This document shows, piece after piece, positions 14,252 through 57,810 of a DNA stretch of 64,000 nt. Every line of letters begins with the position of its first letter. Positions within the stretch are counted from its first letter, which is position 1. The position numbers and the translations under genes were made by a program. The notes below the pieces were generated by a model. It was not told the origin of the DNA. It ran no database searches and worked only from the letters and a program-made list of their open reading frames with translations. The stretch is from a virus (taxonomy: Duplodnaviria; Caudoviricetes), in IMG/VR virus record IMGVR_UViG_3300026549_000051, positions 32,001 through 96,000 of that record; one strand, 5' to 3'.

Positions 14252-14773
14252 TTAAAACGGTAAATCAACGTCAGATAAGTCGACTTCTTCCGCACCAGCC
14301 ATTGGCTCTTCCTTCTTGTCGCTGTCACGACGCATGGCGACTGAGCGATCGGTAAACTCTGCGCGAGAGTATTTACCTTCAGTATAGACTTCGATTTCTA
14401 CCTCAGGCTTTTTAGCGAGTAAGGTCTCAAAGCCCTTAAGATATGCTTTAGCCGCATACTCGAAGTCATCCTTCGCTTCGGCTAGTTCGCAACACTTCTT
14501 GGCTTTCTCTTCAGTAGCACCGAGAGCTACGAACAAATCTTTCATATGCTTAATACGCCAGCCAGCTTTGTCTTTAACCATCCAGTGGTCGGCGGTTGGG
14601 AACTGGAAGTTGTCAGTGTCTTCAAAGTGGAACTTAACAACTTTGTTGCCCTTAGTACCAGCGTCTTTAATTTCTACGCCGTCACACTTTACTGTGTATG
14701 TGCCATCATCAGCGTAGTCTTTGTATTGTGAGCCATACTGCTCTTCAATATCATCCCAGTTAATACCTGCCAT
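14252..14773 (-). CDS. Phage ssDNA-binding protein (DUF669-like)
   Basis: DGTYTVKC..KFHF OB-like core, acidic tail ending DLPF, next to Sak4. Confidence 0.7.
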   Translation of the reverse strand: MAGINWDDIEEQYGSQYKDYADDGTYTVKCDGVEIKDAGTKGNKVVKFHFEDTDNFQFPTADHWMVKDKAGWRIKHMKDLFVALGATEEKAKKCCELAEAKDDFEYAAKAYLKGFETLLAKKPEVEIEVYTEGKYSRAEFTDRSVAMRRDSDKKEEPMAGAEEVDLSDVDLPF

Positions 14774-14775
14774 AA

Positions 14776-15483
14776 CTATTTCTCCTTTTTAGGTTTTAAG
14801 ATTTCATTAATATCTACCTCATCGATATCGACTTCACCAGTCTTACCGAGGCGGTTTTTAGCCAACGCAACGTTATCGCTTTCGAGCACCAACTTGCGTT
14901 TGCCTTCGGCATCCTTCTTAAGATAGAAGACGTTATCACACCACTCCACAAATACATTCATGGTGTTCACGTCGATCTTCGGACTAATCTGCTCAACATC
15001 CACACCATCAGCATCCATAATATGCTTCTTATCGGCATGGGCGATGAGGCAAATGCCGTAGCCCTTTTTATTTAATGCCACTAAAGTAGGCAACAACTTT
15101 GTGCGGATATGGTTCTCAAGCACCTGCTTGCCATTACCGTAGCCACCGTTAGAACGGTTAAGTGTTTCCTCGAGGTTGCGGGAGTCAATGCCAGCAGCCT
15201 GTTCTACCACCTTACGCACCATCCAGTCGGTCGAGTCGATAACTAGCGTATCGAACTGACGCTCCTTCGCATGGTACAAGTCGGCGAGGTCTTCGTAGAA
15301 CTTCTTTAAGTCTTGGTATTGCTTGGTGCGTTTGACGCCAAGGTAATTCAAGCCTCCCTCGAAGTCCATAAACAATGGATTCTTGAGCTTCGATGCCAGC
15401 GTAGATTTGCCTACGCCGCTGAGACCATAGATCATTACCTTTGGTGCGGTCAATGTGACACCTTCAATAATGTCTAAACTCAT
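14776..15483 (-). CDS. Sak4-like ATPase recombinase (AAA_24)
   Basis: MIYGLSGVGKST Walker A, MDFEGG, LVIDS, LIAH, AKNR. Confidence 0.85.
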   Translation of the reverse strand: MSLDIIEGVTLTAPKVMIYGLSGVGKSTLASKLKNPLFMDFEGGLNYLGVKRTKQYQDLKKFYEDLADLYHAKERQFDTLVIDSTDWMVRKVVEQAAGIDSRNLEETLNRSNGGYGNGKQVLENHIRTKLLPTLVALNKKGYGICLIAHADKKHIMDADGVDVEQISPKIDVNTMNVFVEWCDNVFYLKKDAEGKRKLVLESDNVALAKNRLGKTGEVDIDEVDINEILKPKKEK

Positions 15484-15519
15484 CCGAGTCCTTTCCAAAT
15501 TGTATTGTTATTATTTATA

Positions 15520-15765
15520 GTTTCCCCCTACCTTCATTTTACCATACATATTCGACCATGTGTATGGAGCAGATGGGCAATGGAACCAAGAACTTTTTGA
15601 CAAAAAGTTTATCAACTCACGAGGTACAAATGTGAATTTTTTGATGAAAAGTCTATGCGTAAAAGTGAAGGTAATACAACAAAGATTGTAAAAATACGCT
15701 ACCCATCTGCCTCTAGTTTGTGAAGAACCACCACGCTCTTTAACGCCTGACATGGCACGAAGGCA
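15520..15765 (-). ncRNA. Candidate pseudoknotted structured RNA
   Basis: Two crossing long helices plus several local hairpins (see findings). Confidence 0.5.
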
Positions 15766-15770
15766 TTTGT

Positions 15771-16139
15771 TTAGTGGAAGAAGCCTTTTGGCTTCGTATT
15801 GTCCGCGATAAGCGAGACCTTCTCGAGAATCTTGTTCAAGACCTCGATGACGATTTCAGCCTGAGCTTCCGTGAAATTGATTTCAAGTGGCGTGGTTACA
15901 GACTCGCTAATTGCCTCTGCAATTCTCTCCCCCTCGGTTTTACTAGAGGTGTTCTTTTGTAGGACAAAAGTTCGATATTCATCAAGGTCTTCTGCCTTCT
16001 TAATACGCCAGAATGTTGACTGGCTAATATTCATAGCTCGCTGGATCTCTCTGCCAGATAAGCCTGTGTCAATTAGTGTTTTGACTGCATTAAAACTATG
16101 CTCGTCAATTTTGCGATATTTACGAACCTTCTTGTTCAT
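15771..16139 (-). CDS. HTH transcriptional regulator
   Basis: GLSGREIQRAMNISQSTFWRIK helix-turn-helix. Confidence 0.75.
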   Translation of the reverse strand: MNKKVRKYRKIDEHSFNAVKTLIDTGLSGREIQRAMNISQSTFWRIKKAEDLDEYRTFVLQKNTSSKTEGERIAEAISESVTTPLEINFTEAQAEIVIEVLNKILEKVSLIADNTKPKGFFH

Positions 16140-16203
16140 TTGTTTTCTCCAATTAAATTAATATTACATTCACTTTTGTTTGTGTTGTTTTAAACATATC
16201 ACA

Positions 16204-16863
16204 CTATTTTCCTTCAGTCAATTCCTCCTCCAATTTCTTGCACCAGTTCTTCTCCGAGAAGTCTGACTTGCCTTTTAAACAGGCGTAGATGTCATCTTCG
16301 ATAGTTCCCACCGACTTTTGTCTTTTGTAGGCGTCTCGCTTCTGCTTGAGCCTAGCATTATGGCGGCACTCATCGCTACAATATTTTGTTGTACCACTTG
16401 GGACAAATTCTTCGCCACAGAAACTGCAACGCGGATAATCGCCAGCTTTTATACGCTTATATGTTTTGGTGTACTTATAGCCATTATTTTTAAGCGACCT
16501 CCTATTTACCTCCCTTCTCCCATTAAGTCTACACTCGCTACTGCAATATGTATTATGTTTCTCATATGGAACAAATTTTTTTCCACAGAAACAACAGTAA
16601 GCTGTTCTTTTGACATACGGTGCTCTAATAGGCTCGTTATTTGCATGCCATTTCTTATGGCACTTCACGCAAAGCCAGGAAACTTCCAGAGGTTTATTAT
16701 AATCGTTATGGTGTGCTTCCACTTTCTCAGTAGAGCCACAGCATTCACACGGCATCTTAGCCATTGTCCCAGACTTAATCGCCTTACGGACTAATGAGTG
16801 AGCCCTGTGCTCAGCCCTGAACTTCATATATTGATCATGCGTTTTCTCTTGTTCTGTCTTCAT
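16204..16863 (-). CDS. HNH homing endonuclease with Zn-finger repeats, fused to the displaced helicase C-terminus
   Basis: CECCG..EAHHNDY..WLCVKCHKKWH; two CxxCG..YCSxEC fingers; last ~35 aa duplicate the helicase end. Confidence 0.8.
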   Translation of the reverse strand: MKTEQEKTHDQYMKFRAEHRAHSLVRKAIKSGTMAKMPCECCGSTEKVEAHHNDYNKPLEVSWLCVKCHKKWHANNEPIRAPYVKRTAYCCFCGKKFVPYEKHNTYCSSECRLNGRREVNRRSLKNNGYKYTKTYKRIKAGDYPRCSFCGEEFVPSGTTKYCSDECRHNARLKQKRDAYKRQKSVGTIEDDIYACLKGKSDFSEKNWCKKLEEELTEGK

Positions 16864-18067
16864 TTTGACACCACACTTTCTCCGAAAAATCTTGCTTATT
16901 CTTTAAGCACCTCATAATATCCTTTTCTATTGTATCACAACAATAACAGTAGTAGAAGAACATCGGCTTAGTTTGCCCGATACGCTTAATGCGACCGCGT
17001 GCCTGTAATGATGTGCTATATGAGTAATTCGGCGATACCGAGCACCAGTAGTGCATGAACTGTAAGTTCAACGCTTCGCCACCACTAGCGTAGTGAGCGA
17101 CCACGATGTCATATTTGCCTATCGTATCAGGTGTAGGTATCTCATGGTGCTTACCATCAATTCGCCATATCTTCGTCCCCTTAGGCAGAGCCTTCTTGGC
17201 TATTTCGCAAACCACCTCTTCCTCTTCAATGTAATTACAGAAGAAGACGCAGTTATCGCCCAGCCCCTCGATGAACTCCGACAGCCACTCTTGCTTCTCC
17301 TTAGTGAAGCATATCTGCCTGAGGTAATGGCACAAGCCCATCGTGGTTTCGATGAACTCGCCATCCTCTTTGGTGCGGGTCTTCATAATCTTGCGATAGT
17401 TCTTTGGGGCTTTGAACTCAACCACCTTATGTGTTTCCTTTGGCAACTCCCTGAACATCTGAGAGGCATCAGGCGTGGTAACAATGTCATCCCACATCTT
17501 CTTCAACTCATCGACCCTTACATAGTGGTCTATCTCTGGGAAGCCTCGGTATGTATGGACTATGGCATAATTATTCATAAAGTCCGTCTTGTGCTTGACC
17601 TTCCCACACACTGTAAAGTATGTAATAAAGTCTTTCCAGTCGTCCCCAGGCGTGGCTGTGTAGCCAGTCCATACTGTGCAATGGTCGCAGATACGACGGA
17701 AGCCATACCCCATACCAGTCGTATATCCCTTGCACTTCTGCACCTCATCGAACGCGAAGGCATAATTGCCGAGTCGTAATAGAGGCAACTGCAATGAATA
17801 TTTATCCAGCTTGTGCCACGAGATTACCTCAAAACTTTCAAGACTGTCGAGCCATTCCTGACCGTTCCATAGCACGGCTTCCTTCTGCATATCACCTGAC
17901 CTAGCCTTAGTGGCTGTTGTAACGATTACAACACGCTTCCTGCCAGTATCTCTCAGCCAGTTAAACATCACGGCAGTCTTACCTGCACCAGTTGGCAGAA
18001 TGCAAATGCGACTCCCAGCGTCAAGATCGGCAACAGCCTGCTCTTGGAACTTATACAGGCTAGGCAT
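16835..18067 (-). CDS. SF2 (SNF2-like) helicase
   Basis: LPTGAGKT, FDEVQ, YTATP, GGEALNLQ, QARGRIKRIGQ. Confidence 0.9.
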   Translation of the reverse strand: MPSLYKFQEQAVADLDAGSRICILPTGAGKTAVMFNWLRDTGRKRVVIVTTATKARSGDMQKEAVLWNGQEWLDSLESFEVISWHKLDKYSLQLPLLRLGNYAFAFDEVQKCKGYTTGMGYGFRRICDHCTVWTGYTATPGDDWKDFITYFTVCGKVKHKTDFMNNYAIVHTYRGFPEIDHYVRVDELKKMWDDIVTTPDASQMFRELPKETHKVVEFKAPKNYRKIMKTRTKEDGEFIETTMGLCHYLRQICFTKEKQEWLSEFIEGLGDNCVFFCNYIEEEEVVCEIAKKALPKGTKIWRIDGKHHEIPTPDTIGKYDIVVAHYASGGEALNLQFMHYWCSVSPNYSYSTSLQARGRIKRIGQTKPMFFYYCYCCDTIEKDIMRCLKNKQDFSEKVWCQNEDRTRENA

Positions 18068-22408: not shown

Positions 22409-22948
22409 TTATAGCCTTTCTTCTCTTAAAATGCTTCGCAACTCATAGTGTGCCACGCCGTCCATAAGCCCATATGCTTCTTCACGCAATGCCACGATTT
22501 TGTTCGCTATCTCATCAAAATTACTCAGCACATCTTCTAACTCATTAGCAATATGCTTATAGTATTCAATACGCTTGCTAATCTCTGCTTCTATCTCATC
22601 TGGTGTCAATTCAATGCAAGGGTGTAAATACTGCCCACGATTTATTAGCCGTCCTTGCTTCTCATACTCTTTCGCTTCTTCCTTGTCAAACACAGTCTTA
22701 GTGATGTTAATGGTGTCATCAAAATAATGCCCATTGTCATCACGCTTGCACACACTAATCTCTTTTTCGCTTGCGTTGTATCTGTTATTGCGAATTGCCC
22801 CCTTAGTAAAGTTCTGTGCAAGGTTCTTGAAGTCCTTGCCGTCCTTAGTCTTATAGCGTTCAATATCTGCCCATGCTTCAATAAGCACATCACATTCATG
22901 CTTGCGTTGTTCTAGTTTTTTCTTCGCTTGTTCTGCGTAATAGTCCAT
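22409..22948 (-). CDS. Early hypothetical protein
   Basis: AAGGA RBS, own promoter. Confidence 0.7.
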   Translation of the reverse strand: MDYYAEQAKKKLEQRKHECDVLIEAWADIERYKTKDGKDFKNLAQNFTKGAIRNNRYNASEKEISVCKRDDNGHYFDDTINITKTVFDKEEAKEYEKQGRLINRGQYLHPCIELTPDEIEAEISKRIEYYKHIANELEDVLSNFDEIANKIVALREEAYGLMDGVAHYELRSILREERL

Positions 22949-22979
22949 AATATTCCTTTCACTTTTACTTTATAATCTT

Positions 22980-23008
22980 AGTATAGCAAACTATTCTTTA
23001 ATTGTCAA
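22980..23008 (-). promoter_or_regulatory. Sigma70-type early promoter
   Basis: TTGACA-17-TATACT with extended TG. Confidence 0.8.
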
Positions 23009-23267
23009 TACTATTTACTCCATAAGTTATAATAAACTTTACATTTTTAATTGTGTCGGTGTCATAGCCACCACCTGCCACTAGTGCTAAATCATGCTTA
23101 ATATAACTATCAATAGCATCCTTGCACCAAAAACTATCTGTATCTATGTGGTATATATCGCAAAACTCAAACTCGTTATTGCGTTCTGCTTCGTCAATAT
23201 ATTTTAAGTCAGGGTGGTTCTTCTTTACCTTATACTTAATTACACCCTTAACATTTATAATTGCCAT
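22998..23267 (-). CDS. Early hypothetical protein
   Basis: YIKHDLALVAGGGY; 89-aa ORF. Confidence 0.65.
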   Translation of the reverse strand: MAIINVKGVIKYKVKKNHPDLKYIDEAERNNEFEFCDIYHIDTDSFWCKDAIDSYIKHDLALVAGGGYDTDTIKNVKFIITYGVNSIDN

Positions 23268-56830: not shown

Positions 56831-57810
56831 GCATAGCAAGCGAACTATCAGCCCTGAATGGCTACATTCTCGGCGCATATGACGAAATCAACACTAAAGG
56901 CGGCACAGTGCCAGCCAATAAGAATATGGCAAATCTAGCTCCTGCGATCAGCACCATTAGTTCTGGCAGCAGTGTTACCGTCAGCCCTTTGTCTGTCACG
57001 GCAAATGGCACATATACAGCACCAGCTGGCACAGCATACAGCCCAGTGACGGTCAATGTAAGTGGTGGCGGAAGTGTTGGTATACCTAGAGAAGTGTCGA
57101 GTGAGGGCAAATATCAAATGCCGACGAATAACTTTACCCTCAGTCTGCCAGCCAACGCGACGAGTATAGGCCCATATGCTTTGGCCTATGCTTTTTACAA
57201 TTGTGCCAGTCTTACCTCAGTTGACCTAAGCTCTTTAACGACGTTGACCGGCCCAAGTGCTTTGTACTATGCTTTCCAGTCTTGTCGAGCTCTTACCTCA
57301 GTTGACCTAAGCTCTTTAACGACGTTGACCGGCTCATATGCTTTGGCCTACGCTTTCCAGTCTTGCTCCAGTCTTTCCTCAGTTGACTTAAGCTCTTTAA
57401 CGACGTTGACCGGCTCAAATGGTTTGTCCTATGCTTTTTACGGCTGTACCAGTCTTACCTCAGTTGACTTAAGCTCTTTAACGACGGTGACCGACTCAAA
57501 TGGTTTGGCCTACGCTTTCCAGTCTTGCTCCAGTCTTTCCTCAGTTGACTTAAGCTCTTTAACGACGTTGACCGGCTCAAGTGCTTTGGCCAATGCTTTT
57601 CGCTATTGTGGCAGTCTTACGAGCCTCTCATTCCCAGCTCTTACGACCTCCAGCTTTGGGTCTAAGACAAACCAATTCAACAATATGCTTTATGGTGTCA
57701 GGGGGTGTACTGTCCATTTTCCGGCCGCCATCCAGTCAACTATTGGAGGATGGTCGAGTGTTAAGAGCGGCTTCGGCGGCACAAATACGACGGTGTTATT
57801 TGACTTGTAG
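56827..57810 (+). CDS. BspA-like leucine-rich-repeat receptor-binding protein
   Basis: AFxxCxSLTSVDLSSLTTL 27-aa repeats behind an N-terminal trimer-type module; ATGA-coupled to the fibre. Confidence 0.8.
   Translation: MSIASELSALNGYILGAYDEINTKGGTVPANKNMANLAPAISTISSGSSVTVSPLSVTANGTYTAPAGTAYSPVTVNVSGGGSVGIPREVSSEGKYQMPTNNFTLSLPANATSIGPYALAYAFYNCASLTSVDLSSLTTLTGPSALYYAFQSCRALTSVDLSSLTTLTGSYALAYAFQSCSSLSSVDLSSLTTLTGSNGLSYAFYGCTSLTSVDLSSLTTVTDSNGLAYAFQSCSSLSSVDLSSLTTLTGSSALANAFRYCGSLTSLSFPALTTSSFGSKTNQFNNMLYGVRGCTVHFPAAIQSTIGGWSSVKSGFGGTNTTVLFDL
57169..57620 (+). repeat. 81-bp tandem repeat, ~5.6 copies (LRR units)
   Basis: Units start at 57169, 57250, 57331, 57412, 57493 and 57574. Confidence 0.9.

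What the first reader, a model, noticed from the sequence alone, without database searches (positions are those of the whole stretch)
15520..15765. ~250-nt pseudoknotted RNA between the HTH regulator and Sak4
Seen on -: GGCAGATGGGTA (15711-15700) pairs 12 bp with TGCCCATCTGCT (15579-15568), and both imperfections are G-U only on this strand. TACCTTCACTTTTAC (15673-15659) pairs with GTAAAATGAAGGTA (15542-15529). The two helices cross. Local hairpins include TGCCT/AGGCG, AAGAGC/GTTCTT, ATCAA..TCAC/GTGA..TTGAT, AACTTTTTGTCAAAAAGTT and CCATACA/TGTATGG. I do not recognise the family. It could be a cis-regulator of the recombination operon or a trans-acting ncRNA. The 19-bp palindrome could be an operator for the adjacent HTH protein.
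Basis: partly seen in the sequence, partly recalled or inferred. Interest (0 to 1): 0.7.

Follow-up and report, generated by a model that had tools for sequence, protein, structure and literature searches.

The report
Phage small RNA with conserved pseudoknot
The gap between the regulator gene and the Sak4 gene encodes a structured phage RNA of about 200 bases that begins with a small pseudoknot found in many phages of Firmicutes and absent from Rfam 15, followed by the ordinary Sak4 promoter.

Summary

- **Helix 1 confirmed.** Helix 1 (15711-15700 / 15579-15568) is confirmed. All 20 related loci carry a long helix at the same position, with at least 14 different sequences.
- **5' pseudoknot.** It occurs in about 135 viral contigs, in two genomic contexts, with compensatory changes in both stems. 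Rfam 15 gives no match.
- **Helix 2 not supported.** Its 3' arm is the extended -10 box of the Sak4 promoter. Divergent relatives break the helix with no compensating change, so the proposed crossing pseudoknot falls.
- **Not conserved.** The 19-bp palindrome and the 80-aa ORF are not conserved.
- **Expression.** One bovine-gut metatranscriptome holds a single 191-nt contig at depth 30 covering only 15566-15756. This spans the pseudoknot to the foot of helix 1.
- **Possible targets.** An invariant unpaired 17-nt stretch is antisense to a leader motif of two early genes.
- **Best reading (function inferred).** An RNA derived from the regulator gene's 3' UTR, with the pseudoknot marking or protecting its 5' end. 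It probably acts by antisense pairing on early-gene leaders.

This scan had already noted the scaffold-gene context of the motif on other DNA.

The parts
15729..15765 (-). 5' H-type pseudoknot motif. Closing pair Y-G at 15765/15744. P1 is GCCU 15764-15761 with AGGC 15748-15745. L1 is UC 15760-15759. The loop is 15758-15749. The linker GUUAAAGAG is 15744-15736. The loop segment 15756-15750 pairs with the tail at 15735-15729.
   Evidence: About 135 viral contigs carry it. P1 covaries: 17 loci have GU..AGA against 1 with GC..AGA. The base before G1 is always a pyrimidine. The loop/tail permutation test gave 0 of 2000 permutations at or above the true score. Rfam gives no match.
15568..15711 (-). 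Body of the RNA, closed by helix 1 (15711-15700 with 15579-15568).
   Evidence: Relatives have different complementary arm sequences at the same offset, +22 to +34 after the linker.
15658..15699 (-). Stem P_B (15699-15695 with 15662-15658). It encloses hairpin P_C (15690-15685 with 15680-15675) and the unpaired conserved segment.
   Evidence: folds and the alignment. P_B is GCGUA/UACGC in the window, GUGCAU/AUGCAC in L232 and AGAGU/ACUCU in L005. P_C is replaced in L235 and L232 and absent in L005.
15662..15678 (-). Invariant unpaired 17-nt segment containing ACCUUCAC. It is the candidate antisense seed.
   Evidence: Identical or nearly so in the window, L243, L237, L235, L256, L232, L005 and L224. 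It is unpaired in the independent MFE folds of six of the eight sequences: window, L243, L237, L235, L232 and L224. Its complement is conserved in early-gene leaders.
15611..15645 (-). Hairpin P_D (core 15635-15632 with 15620-15617) with UACCUC in its loop.
   Evidence: The stem becomes CUAGC/GCUAG in L232 while the loop motif is kept.
15591..15609 (-). The 19-bp palindrome. It is not a conserved feature.
   Evidence: kept only in L243, the closest relative.
15536..15564 (-). Sak4 promoter. The extended -10 is TG at 15544-15543 with TAAAAT at 15541-15536. The weak -35 is at 15564-15559.
   Evidence: Scan. TGnTA(A/G)AAT is conserved in all 7 relatives. The sibling Sak4 gene has TTGACA-17-TACTAT at the same place before the same leader.
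15484..15531 (-). Conserved Sak4 5' UTR and ribosome-binding site. The Sak4 ATG is at 15483.
   Evidence: The leader is shared with the second Sak4 gene of the record.
16162..16176 (-). Leader motif in the 5' UTR of the HTH gene. It is complementary to the unpaired segment in 15 of 16 positions.
   Evidence: It is conserved in the window, L243, L237, L235, L256 and L232.
22951..22965 (-). Second copy of the leader motif. It overlaps the SD and start codon of a 179-aa gene, behind a TTGACA-17-TATACT promoter.
   Evidence: The same promoter-leader cassette is present in L235 and L237 before a different gene.

Best explanation
Shown:
- The gap holds two separate things.
- From about 15764 to 15565 on the - strand lies a structured non-coding RNA of about 200 nt.
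- Its 5' end is a compact H-type pseudoknot (Y-GYCUUC, loop, AGRCG, UUAAAGAG, tail pairing with the loop). This motif is a modular element of phages and prophages of Bacillota (Firmicutes).
It displays an invariant unpaired ACCUUCAC-containing segment and a UACCUC hairpin loop.
- From about 15564 to 15484 lies the extended -10 promoter and 5' UTR of Sak4.

Inferred:
- No promoter was recognised in front of the pseudoknot. The RNA is therefore most likely transcribed with the HTH gene, as its 3' UTR, and accumulates as a stable fragment.
- The pseudoknot marks and probably protects its 5' end, as a processing boundary or a block to 5'-3' decay by RNase J-type enzymes. Helix 1 protects the 3' end.
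- The RNA then acts in trans. Its unpaired segment pairs with a shared leader motif of early transcripts (its own HTH gene and the 179-aa gene, where it covers the ribosome site) and damps early expression.
For: **Family and structure**
- Pseudoknot motif: 117 viral loci carry GC/GG in P1, and 17 of 18 loci in the AGA scan carry the compensated GU/GA form.
- The base before G1 is always a pyrimidine, pairing with the G after AGRC.
- True loop-tail pairings beat all 2000 permutations.
- Unbiased variants were found with covariance model R1.
- Helix 1: 20 of 20 relatives have an 8-13-bp helix starting +22 to +34 after the linker, and none of the scaffold-context controls do. RNAalifold recovers it.
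- Inner stems covary, and the unpaired segment is unpaired in the independent folds of six of the eight sequences.

**Strand**
- G-U pairs, gene orientation, and an intrinsic terminator ending the sibling copy.

**Expression**
- A 191-nt metatranscriptome contig at depth 30 covers only 15566-15756.
- A second study's contig breaks at 15568/15570, with a twofold step in depth.

**Targets**
- The leader motif has 3 copies in the record against 0.2 expected. Two are sense copies in 5' UTRs and one is antisense in the RNA. L235 and L237 have the same trio.

**Other**
- The promoter is supported.
- The ORF is not conserved.
Against: - Function is not shown.
- The RNA evidence comes from assembled contigs, which give neither strand nor exact ends, and from one clear sample.
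- The seed-leader duplex (about -15 kcal/mol) is no stronger than the best duplexes of shuffled seeds.
- One central position is always mismatched.
- L005, L224 and the sibling copy keep the CCUUCAC motif, but no leader copy was found.
- Because the seed never varies, seed-target covariation cannot be tested.
- A few members (loops AGACGGU and AGGCGGU) show little loop-tail pairing.
- Nothing tests nuclease resistance.
- The window's RNA has no terminator, so its 3' end is unexplained.
Confidence: 0.55

Rival explanations
1. One 250-nt RNA is folded by two crossing long helices (helix 1 and helix 2) and acts in cis on the Sak4 operon.
For: Both helices exist in the window. Helix 2 is kept in the four closest relatives.
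Against: - Helix 2 has no pair with changes on both sides and is broken at 3 of its 8 core pairs in L232 and L005.
- Its 3' arm is the conserved TGnTAnAAT box.
- The RNA contig ends at 15566, upstream of that arm.
- A transcript from the Sak4 promoter would not contain the arm.
Confidence: 0.05
2. The 5' pseudoknot is a self-cleaving ribozyme, a relative or analogue of pistol. It cuts read-through transcripts and so creates the 5' end of the stable RNA, and of the scaffold mRNA in the other context.
For: - It shares three things with pistol: a hairpin loop pairing with downstream sequence, an A-rich linker that from memory is nearly identical to pistol's, and occurrence in Firmicutes phages (PMC6154101).
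- Conservation starts sharply at the first base of the motif.
- The RNA contig starts inside the motif.
Against: - The Rfam Pistol model gives no match even at E = 10 on short queries.
- There is no P2, no P3 and no G-U junction in the expected places.
- A motif of about 45 nt has no precedent for catalysis in this form.
- Contig ends cannot locate a cleavage site.
Confidence: 0.12
3. The pseudoknot is a ligand-binding aptamer, that is a riboswitch of the preQ1-I or SAM-II architectural type.
For: It is a compact H-type pseudoknot with an invariant P1, L1 and A-rich linker and a variable second stem, as in small pseudoknot aptamers (established knowledge). It lies in a 5' UTR in the scaffold context.
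Against: - There is no expression platform. It lies 60-70 nt before the SD in the scaffold context and before no ORF in this window.
- It has no link to metabolic genes.
- No Rfam riboswitch model matches.
Confidence: 0.07
4. The conserved pieces act as DNA: operators, an origin or a cruciform. The 17-bp motif would be a protein-binding site present three times, near two promoters and in the gap.
For: - The three motif copies include an inverted pair flanking the HTH gene.
- The region lies in the replication module.
- The duplex energy is unremarkable.
Against: - G-U pairs are tolerated on one strand only.
- Compensatory changes occur in six different stems.
- Orientation is fixed relative to the genes in more than 100 loci.
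- The same pseudoknot occurs in a head-gene leader.
- The RNA is enriched over its flanks.
- The motif stays invariant while the neighbouring HTH protein drops to 27% identity.
Confidence: 0.07
5. The 80-aa ORF 15511-15753 encodes a protein.
For: The frame is open in the window.
Against: - It has no Pfam match.
- Relatives truncate it to 26-43 aa through indels that are not multiples of three.
- Only the first 8 codons are shared, and they are the pseudoknot motif itself.
Confidence: 0.01

Closest known systems
Pistol self-cleaving ribozyme (Rfam RF02679)
   Same: The loop of a short 5' hairpin pairs with downstream sequence, and an A-rich linker follows the hairpin. Both are found in Firmicutes and near phage genes (PMC6154101). 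From memory, the linker sequences are nearly identical.
   Different: In pistol, a P2 strand and an internal loop lie between the linker and the pseudoknot strand, and a P3 hairpin, a G-U cleavage junction and the P2 return strand follow. None of these is present here. The covariance model does not match.
Small H-type pseudoknot aptamers (preQ1-I, SAM-II, SAM-V)
   Same: Same topology and size, with a short L1 and an A-rich third loop that could lie in the groove of stem 1.
   Different: Here stem 1 and the linker are invariant and stem 2 is free to vary. There is no expression platform and no metabolic gene association, and no model matches.
Exoribonuclease-resistant RNAs of flaviviruses and plant viruses, and the stable 3' UTR RNAs they produce
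   Same: A pseudoknotted element at the 5' boundary of a stable non-coding RNA derived from a 3' UTR. The small plant-virus type has a comparable topology, a hairpin loop pairing with a downstream tail. Flaviviral elements also stop bacterial RNase J1 (PMC5760640, found by search but not read here; stated from memory).
   Different: There is no sequence or model similarity. A ring-like fold and nuclease resistance are untested. My two literature searches found no phage or bacterial example.
Phage P1/P7 c4 antisense RNA, and 3' UTR-derived sRNAs of bacteria
   Same: A small RNA made from the same transcription unit as a regulator. Exposed segments are complementary to leader or ribosome-site sequences of phage genes.
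   Different: There is no sequence or structural relation and no Rfam c4 match. The targets here are inferred from complementarity only, and the 5' pseudoknot has no counterpart.

Membership tests
Pistol ribozyme (RF02679) | Match to the family covariance model | tested here: not met
   cmscan at E up to 10 on 276-nt and 151-nt queries, and on 8 loci, gave no Pistol row.
Pistol ribozyme (RF02679) | P1 loop forms a pseudoknot with the junction between P2 and P3 | tested here: not met
   The pseudoknot is present, but its 3' strand directly follows the linker. No P2 or P3 flanks it.
Pistol ribozyme (RF02679) | Site-specific self-cleavage at a G-U junction | not testable with these tools
   This needs an in vitro cleavage assay. 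Contigs cannot show cleavage sites.
preQ1-I and other pseudoknot riboswitches | Match to a family model, and an expression platform overlapping an SD or terminator | tested here: not met
   No Rfam riboswitch hit. The motif lies 60-70 nt from the SD in the scaffold context and before no ORF here.
Exoribonuclease-resistant RNA | Halts a 5'-3' exoribonuclease without protein, leaving a stable downstream RNA | not testable with these tools
   The only evidence is indirect. The discrete RNA contig begins at the motif, and the hosts are Bacillota, which from established knowledge have RNase J.
Trans-acting antisense sRNA | A discrete stable transcript | tested here: inconclusive
   A 191-nt contig at depth 30 without flanks in one metatranscriptome, and a matching break in a second. 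Neither strand nor ends are resolved.
Trans-acting antisense sRNA | An exposed seed complementary to conserved target sites | tested here: inconclusive
   The seed is unpaired in six of eight independent folds. Complementary leader copies are enriched and conserved. However, the energy is not better than shuffled seeds, and leader copies are absent for L005, L224 and the sibling copy.
Any Rfam 15 family | Score at or near a gathering threshold | tested here: not met
   Searches gave only chance-level hits to unrelated eukaryotic or viral models.

The most novel reading that the evidence does not exclude
The GYCUUC-loop-AGRCGUUAAAGAG pseudoknot is a new functional RNA class of Firmicutes phages that sets the 5' ends of stable phage RNAs. 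It would be either the first bacterial-virus exoribonuclease-resistant RNA (an RNase J block) or a new minimal self-cleaving ribozyme related to pistol. Phages would use it as a portable module in front of head-gene mRNAs and regulatory small RNAs.
Probability: 0.25. Interest if true: 0.85.

Novelty: new variant of a known kind. Interest (0 to 1): 0.7.

Why it matters
Structured RNAs of phages are poorly charted.

- **An uncatalogued motif.** This 45-nt pseudoknot has strict sequence conservation and compensatory changes in both stems. It occurs in about 135 viral contigs and in prophages of lactobacilli, enterococci and clostridia, yet it is not in Rfam 15.
- **It can be tested now.** It sits in cultivable phages (Enterococcus phiEf11, EFC-1 and IME197, and Lactobacillus LR1), right in front of the scaffold and capsid genes.
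- **Evidence it is made in nature.** In rumen phages the same module heads a 200-nt RNA that appears to accumulate in a metatranscriptome and carries sequences antisense to early-gene leaders.
- **What follows if the function holds.** If the pseudoknot blocks RNase J or cleaves itself, it would be a new way for phages to shape mRNA stability. It would also be a compact part for engineering RNA stability in Gram-positive bacteria.

Tried and rejected
- **Rfam.** Four scans, including very permissive ones on short queries, gave nothing relevant.
- **BLAST.** BLASTN of the region against GenBank phages gave no match.
- **HTH relatives.** A locus search with the HTH protein found no relatives.
- **Single-sequence folding.** Not significant on either strand.
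- **Short 14-base pattern and the TATTACC pattern.** Mostly chance hits.
- **Genome-contig scan.** 55 hits, about what chance predicts. Roughly a dozen are true members, all in Bacillota.
- **Model R1.** It found no additional diverged copies in 77 sources.
- **Seed-leader duplex energy.** Not better than shuffled seeds.
- **Targets of the second exposed loop.** It reads as an antisense SD-spacer-AUG, but no target was found in the first phage.
- **Micro-ORFs on the + strand.** The ATG is lost in L237.
- **Promoter in front of the pseudoknot.** The TAA-containing hexamer lies only 3-4 nt from the motif and is explained by the stop codon.
- **Read-through or frameshift signal.** A stop codon followed by 5-8 nt and a pseudoknot suggests one, but the other context (after a terminator) does not fit.
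- **boxA resemblance.** The reverse complement of the linker region resembles the boxA core as I recall it. The G-U pairs, gene orientation and terminator all place the RNA on the gene strand.
- **Literature.** Searches for the motif sequence and for phage exonuclease-resistant RNAs found nothing. A preprint on phage ncRNA arrays concerns another system.

Full report
**Setting**

The window is part of a 111-kb IMG/VR virus record from the bovine gut. Genes here run on the - strand:
- a helicase (16835-18067),
- a zinc-ribbon/HNH-like ORF (16204-16863),
- a 122-aa HTH_7 protein (15771-16139),
- a 272-nt gap,
- a Sak4-type AAA_24 ATPase (ATG at 15483),
- a 173-aa protein.

**Checking the observation**

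Folding the gap alone is unremarkable: z is -1.49 on the - strand and -1.31 on the + strand. Rfam gives only chance-level hits. GenBank phages hold nothing similar. The case therefore rests on relatives.

**Relatives**

Sak4 relatives in IMG/VR gave one locus, L005, with the same HTH-gap-Sak4 layout. Its HTH protein is only 27% identical. The gap nevertheless keeps blocks of near identity in the same order.

One block led to a pattern search. GCCTTC, 4-16 bases, AGGCGTTAAAGAG occurs in 117 viral contigs.

A metagenome scan added five closer relatives of the window's element upstream of Sak4 (L232, L235, L237, L243, L256) and four more distant ones.

**The 5' pseudoknot**

- In most members the middle of the loop is complementary to the bases directly after the linker GUUAAAGAG. 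The pairing sequences differ between lineages. The window has 7 pairs, three of them G-U.
- Pairing true loops with true tails scores 342. Permuted pairings score 275.5 ± 17.4, and 0 of 2000 permutations reach the true score.
- P1 covaries. A scan for the AGA form of the 3' strand found 17 loci with the compensating GU in the 5' strand and a single locus with the mismatching GC. These come from several lineages in both contexts.
- The base before the first G was not part of any search pattern. It is a pyrimidine in all 35 distinct sequences, giving a C-G or U-G closing pair.
- Covariance model R1 found two pattern-independent variants among 151 Lactobacillales genomes (3 of the 151 genomes matched, one being the starting genome). 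One variant turns the closing U-G pair into U-A.

True members in genomes are all Bacillota: Limosilactobacillus, Companilactobacillus, Enterococcus, Eubacterium, Senimuribacter, Anaerovoracaceae and Clostridiales MAGs. The remaining genome hits sit in coding regions and match the number expected by chance.

**Two contexts**

- In Enterococcus and Lactobacillus siphophages (phiEf11, EFC-1, IME197, LR1) the motif follows an intrinsic terminator. It precedes two small hairpins, the SD and the scaffold gene.
- In rumen-type phages, including this window, the motif directly follows a stop codon and heads a longer structured domain.

**The body of the RNA**

- In all 20 members of the second context, the best long-range helix starts 22-34 nt after the linker. 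It has 8-13 pairs and uses at least 14 different sequences. Members of the scaffold context show nothing comparable.
L235 changes A-U to G-C and U-G to U-A at its inner end. L232 and L005 replace the whole helix with unrelated complementary sequences. RNAalifold recovers it.
- Independent MFE folds of the window and L243, L237, L235, L232 and L224 give the same plan (the folds of L256 and L005 differ in part):
  - a second stem directly inside helix 1, which covaries in L232, L005 and L235;
  - a small inner hairpin, replaced in L235 and L232 and absent in L005;
  - an unpaired, invariant 17-nt segment containing ACCUUCAC;
  - a hairpin whose stem covaries and whose loop keeps UACCUC.

**What is not supported**

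- *Helix 2.* It has 14 pairs. Seven never vary, three vary on one side only, none changes on both sides, and four are broken in L232 and L005.
- *Its 3' arm.* It is a conserved TGnTA(A/G)AAT extended -10 box with a downstream leader. The second Sak4 gene of the record has TTGACA-17-TACTAT in front of the same leader.
- *The palindrome.* It is kept only in the closest relative.
- *The 80-aa ORF.* It shrinks to 26-43 aa in relatives.

**Expression**

- One bovine-gut metatranscriptome holds a single, identical 191-nt contig at depth 30.6. It covers 15566-15756 and nothing else of the 1.6 kb laid.
- A compost metatranscriptome holds a relative of about 90% identity. Its contigs break at 15568/15570, with depth 16.6 on the RNA side and 7.7 on the Sak4 side.
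- A DNA run crosses that point.
- Contigs give neither strand nor exact ends. Even so, the covered piece runs from the pseudoknot to the foot of helix 1 and excludes the helix 2 arm.

**Strand**

- G-U pairs occur in P1's closing pair, the pseudoknot stem and helix 1.
- The motif always has the orientation of the flanking genes.
- The sibling copy ends in a tool-detected intrinsic terminator with a U7 tail. It has the compensated GUCU/AGAC form of P1. It lies at G000:C1, about 98139-97916, outside the window, and its MFE z-score is -3.54.

**Possible targets**

- The complement of the unpaired segment, written AAAGTGAANGNAATA, occurs three times in the record against 0.2 expected. One copy is antisense inside the RNA. 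One is in the 5' UTR of the HTH gene, 12 nt before its SD. One covers the SD and start codon of a 179-aa gene behind a strong promoter.
- L235 and L237 have the same trio, with a different gene behind the second leader.
- Against this reading: the duplex is no more stable than those of shuffled seeds, one position is always mismatched, and L005, L224 and the sibling copy lack leader copies.
- The trans-acting antisense role is therefore an inference. I give it about one chance in three.

**What the pseudoknot does**

This is open.
- The motif sits at the exact 5' boundary of a downstream RNA unit in both contexts. Conservation begins sharply at its first base, and the stable RNA fragment begins there.
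- I therefore favour a role as a 5' boundary or protective element against RNase J-type decay after processing. That step is inferred.
- A pistol-like ribozyme, an aptamer and a protein-binding site remain possible.
- Pistol membership fails both the model test and the architecture test.

**Verdict**

This is a real, conserved and apparently expressed phage RNA with a previously uncatalogued pseudoknot module.

Noticed in passing
Whole record G000:C1 (window = 32001-96000): The 111-kb record is two collinear sibling phage genomes of about 56 kb joined head to tail, at 65-91% nucleotide identity. There are second copies of Sak4 (71% aa identity), the helicase (50%) and the 173-aa protein (45%) at 102.9-105.7 kb. 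The CheckV figure of 100% complete for one genome is therefore misleading.
   Followed up: partly
G000:C1:97916-98139 (- strand; locus L336:416-640), outside the window: The second phage half carries a second copy of the RNA family. It has the compensated GUCU/AGAC P1, its own helix, CCUUCAC in a hairpin loop and a bidirectional intrinsic terminator. It directly follows the stop codon of a 50-aa ORF.
   Followed up: yes
window 15484-15531 and G000:C1:104160-104202 (L002): The two Sak4 genes share a nearly identical leader, beginning GGTAGGGGGAAACTATAAA, directly behind their -10 boxes. The SD-like AGGGGG sits 37 nt before the start codon, too far to serve that start.
   Followed up: no
window 22940-23010 (- strand): A strong TTGACA-17-TATACT promoter with a short leader drives a 179-aa gene of unknown function. 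The same promoter-leader cassette precedes a different gene in L235 and L237.
   Followed up: partly
window 14771-14820 (- strand): A weak match (E = 3.1, 19 bits) to the Rfam DUF2815 RNA lies just before the 173-aa gene that follows Sak4. It is far below the gathering score and probably chance, although the gene context is of the right kind.
   Followed up: no
window 57231-57568: Five tandem copies of an 81-nt unit, each containing CGTCGTTAAAGAG, on the - strand. This is probably a repeated 27-aa protein module and is unrelated to the pseudoknot motif.
   Followed up: no
window 16237-16305: The helicase protein also matches a 23-aa stretch (70% identity) inside the 3' end of the next ORF (zinc-ribbon/HNH-like).
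   Followed up: no
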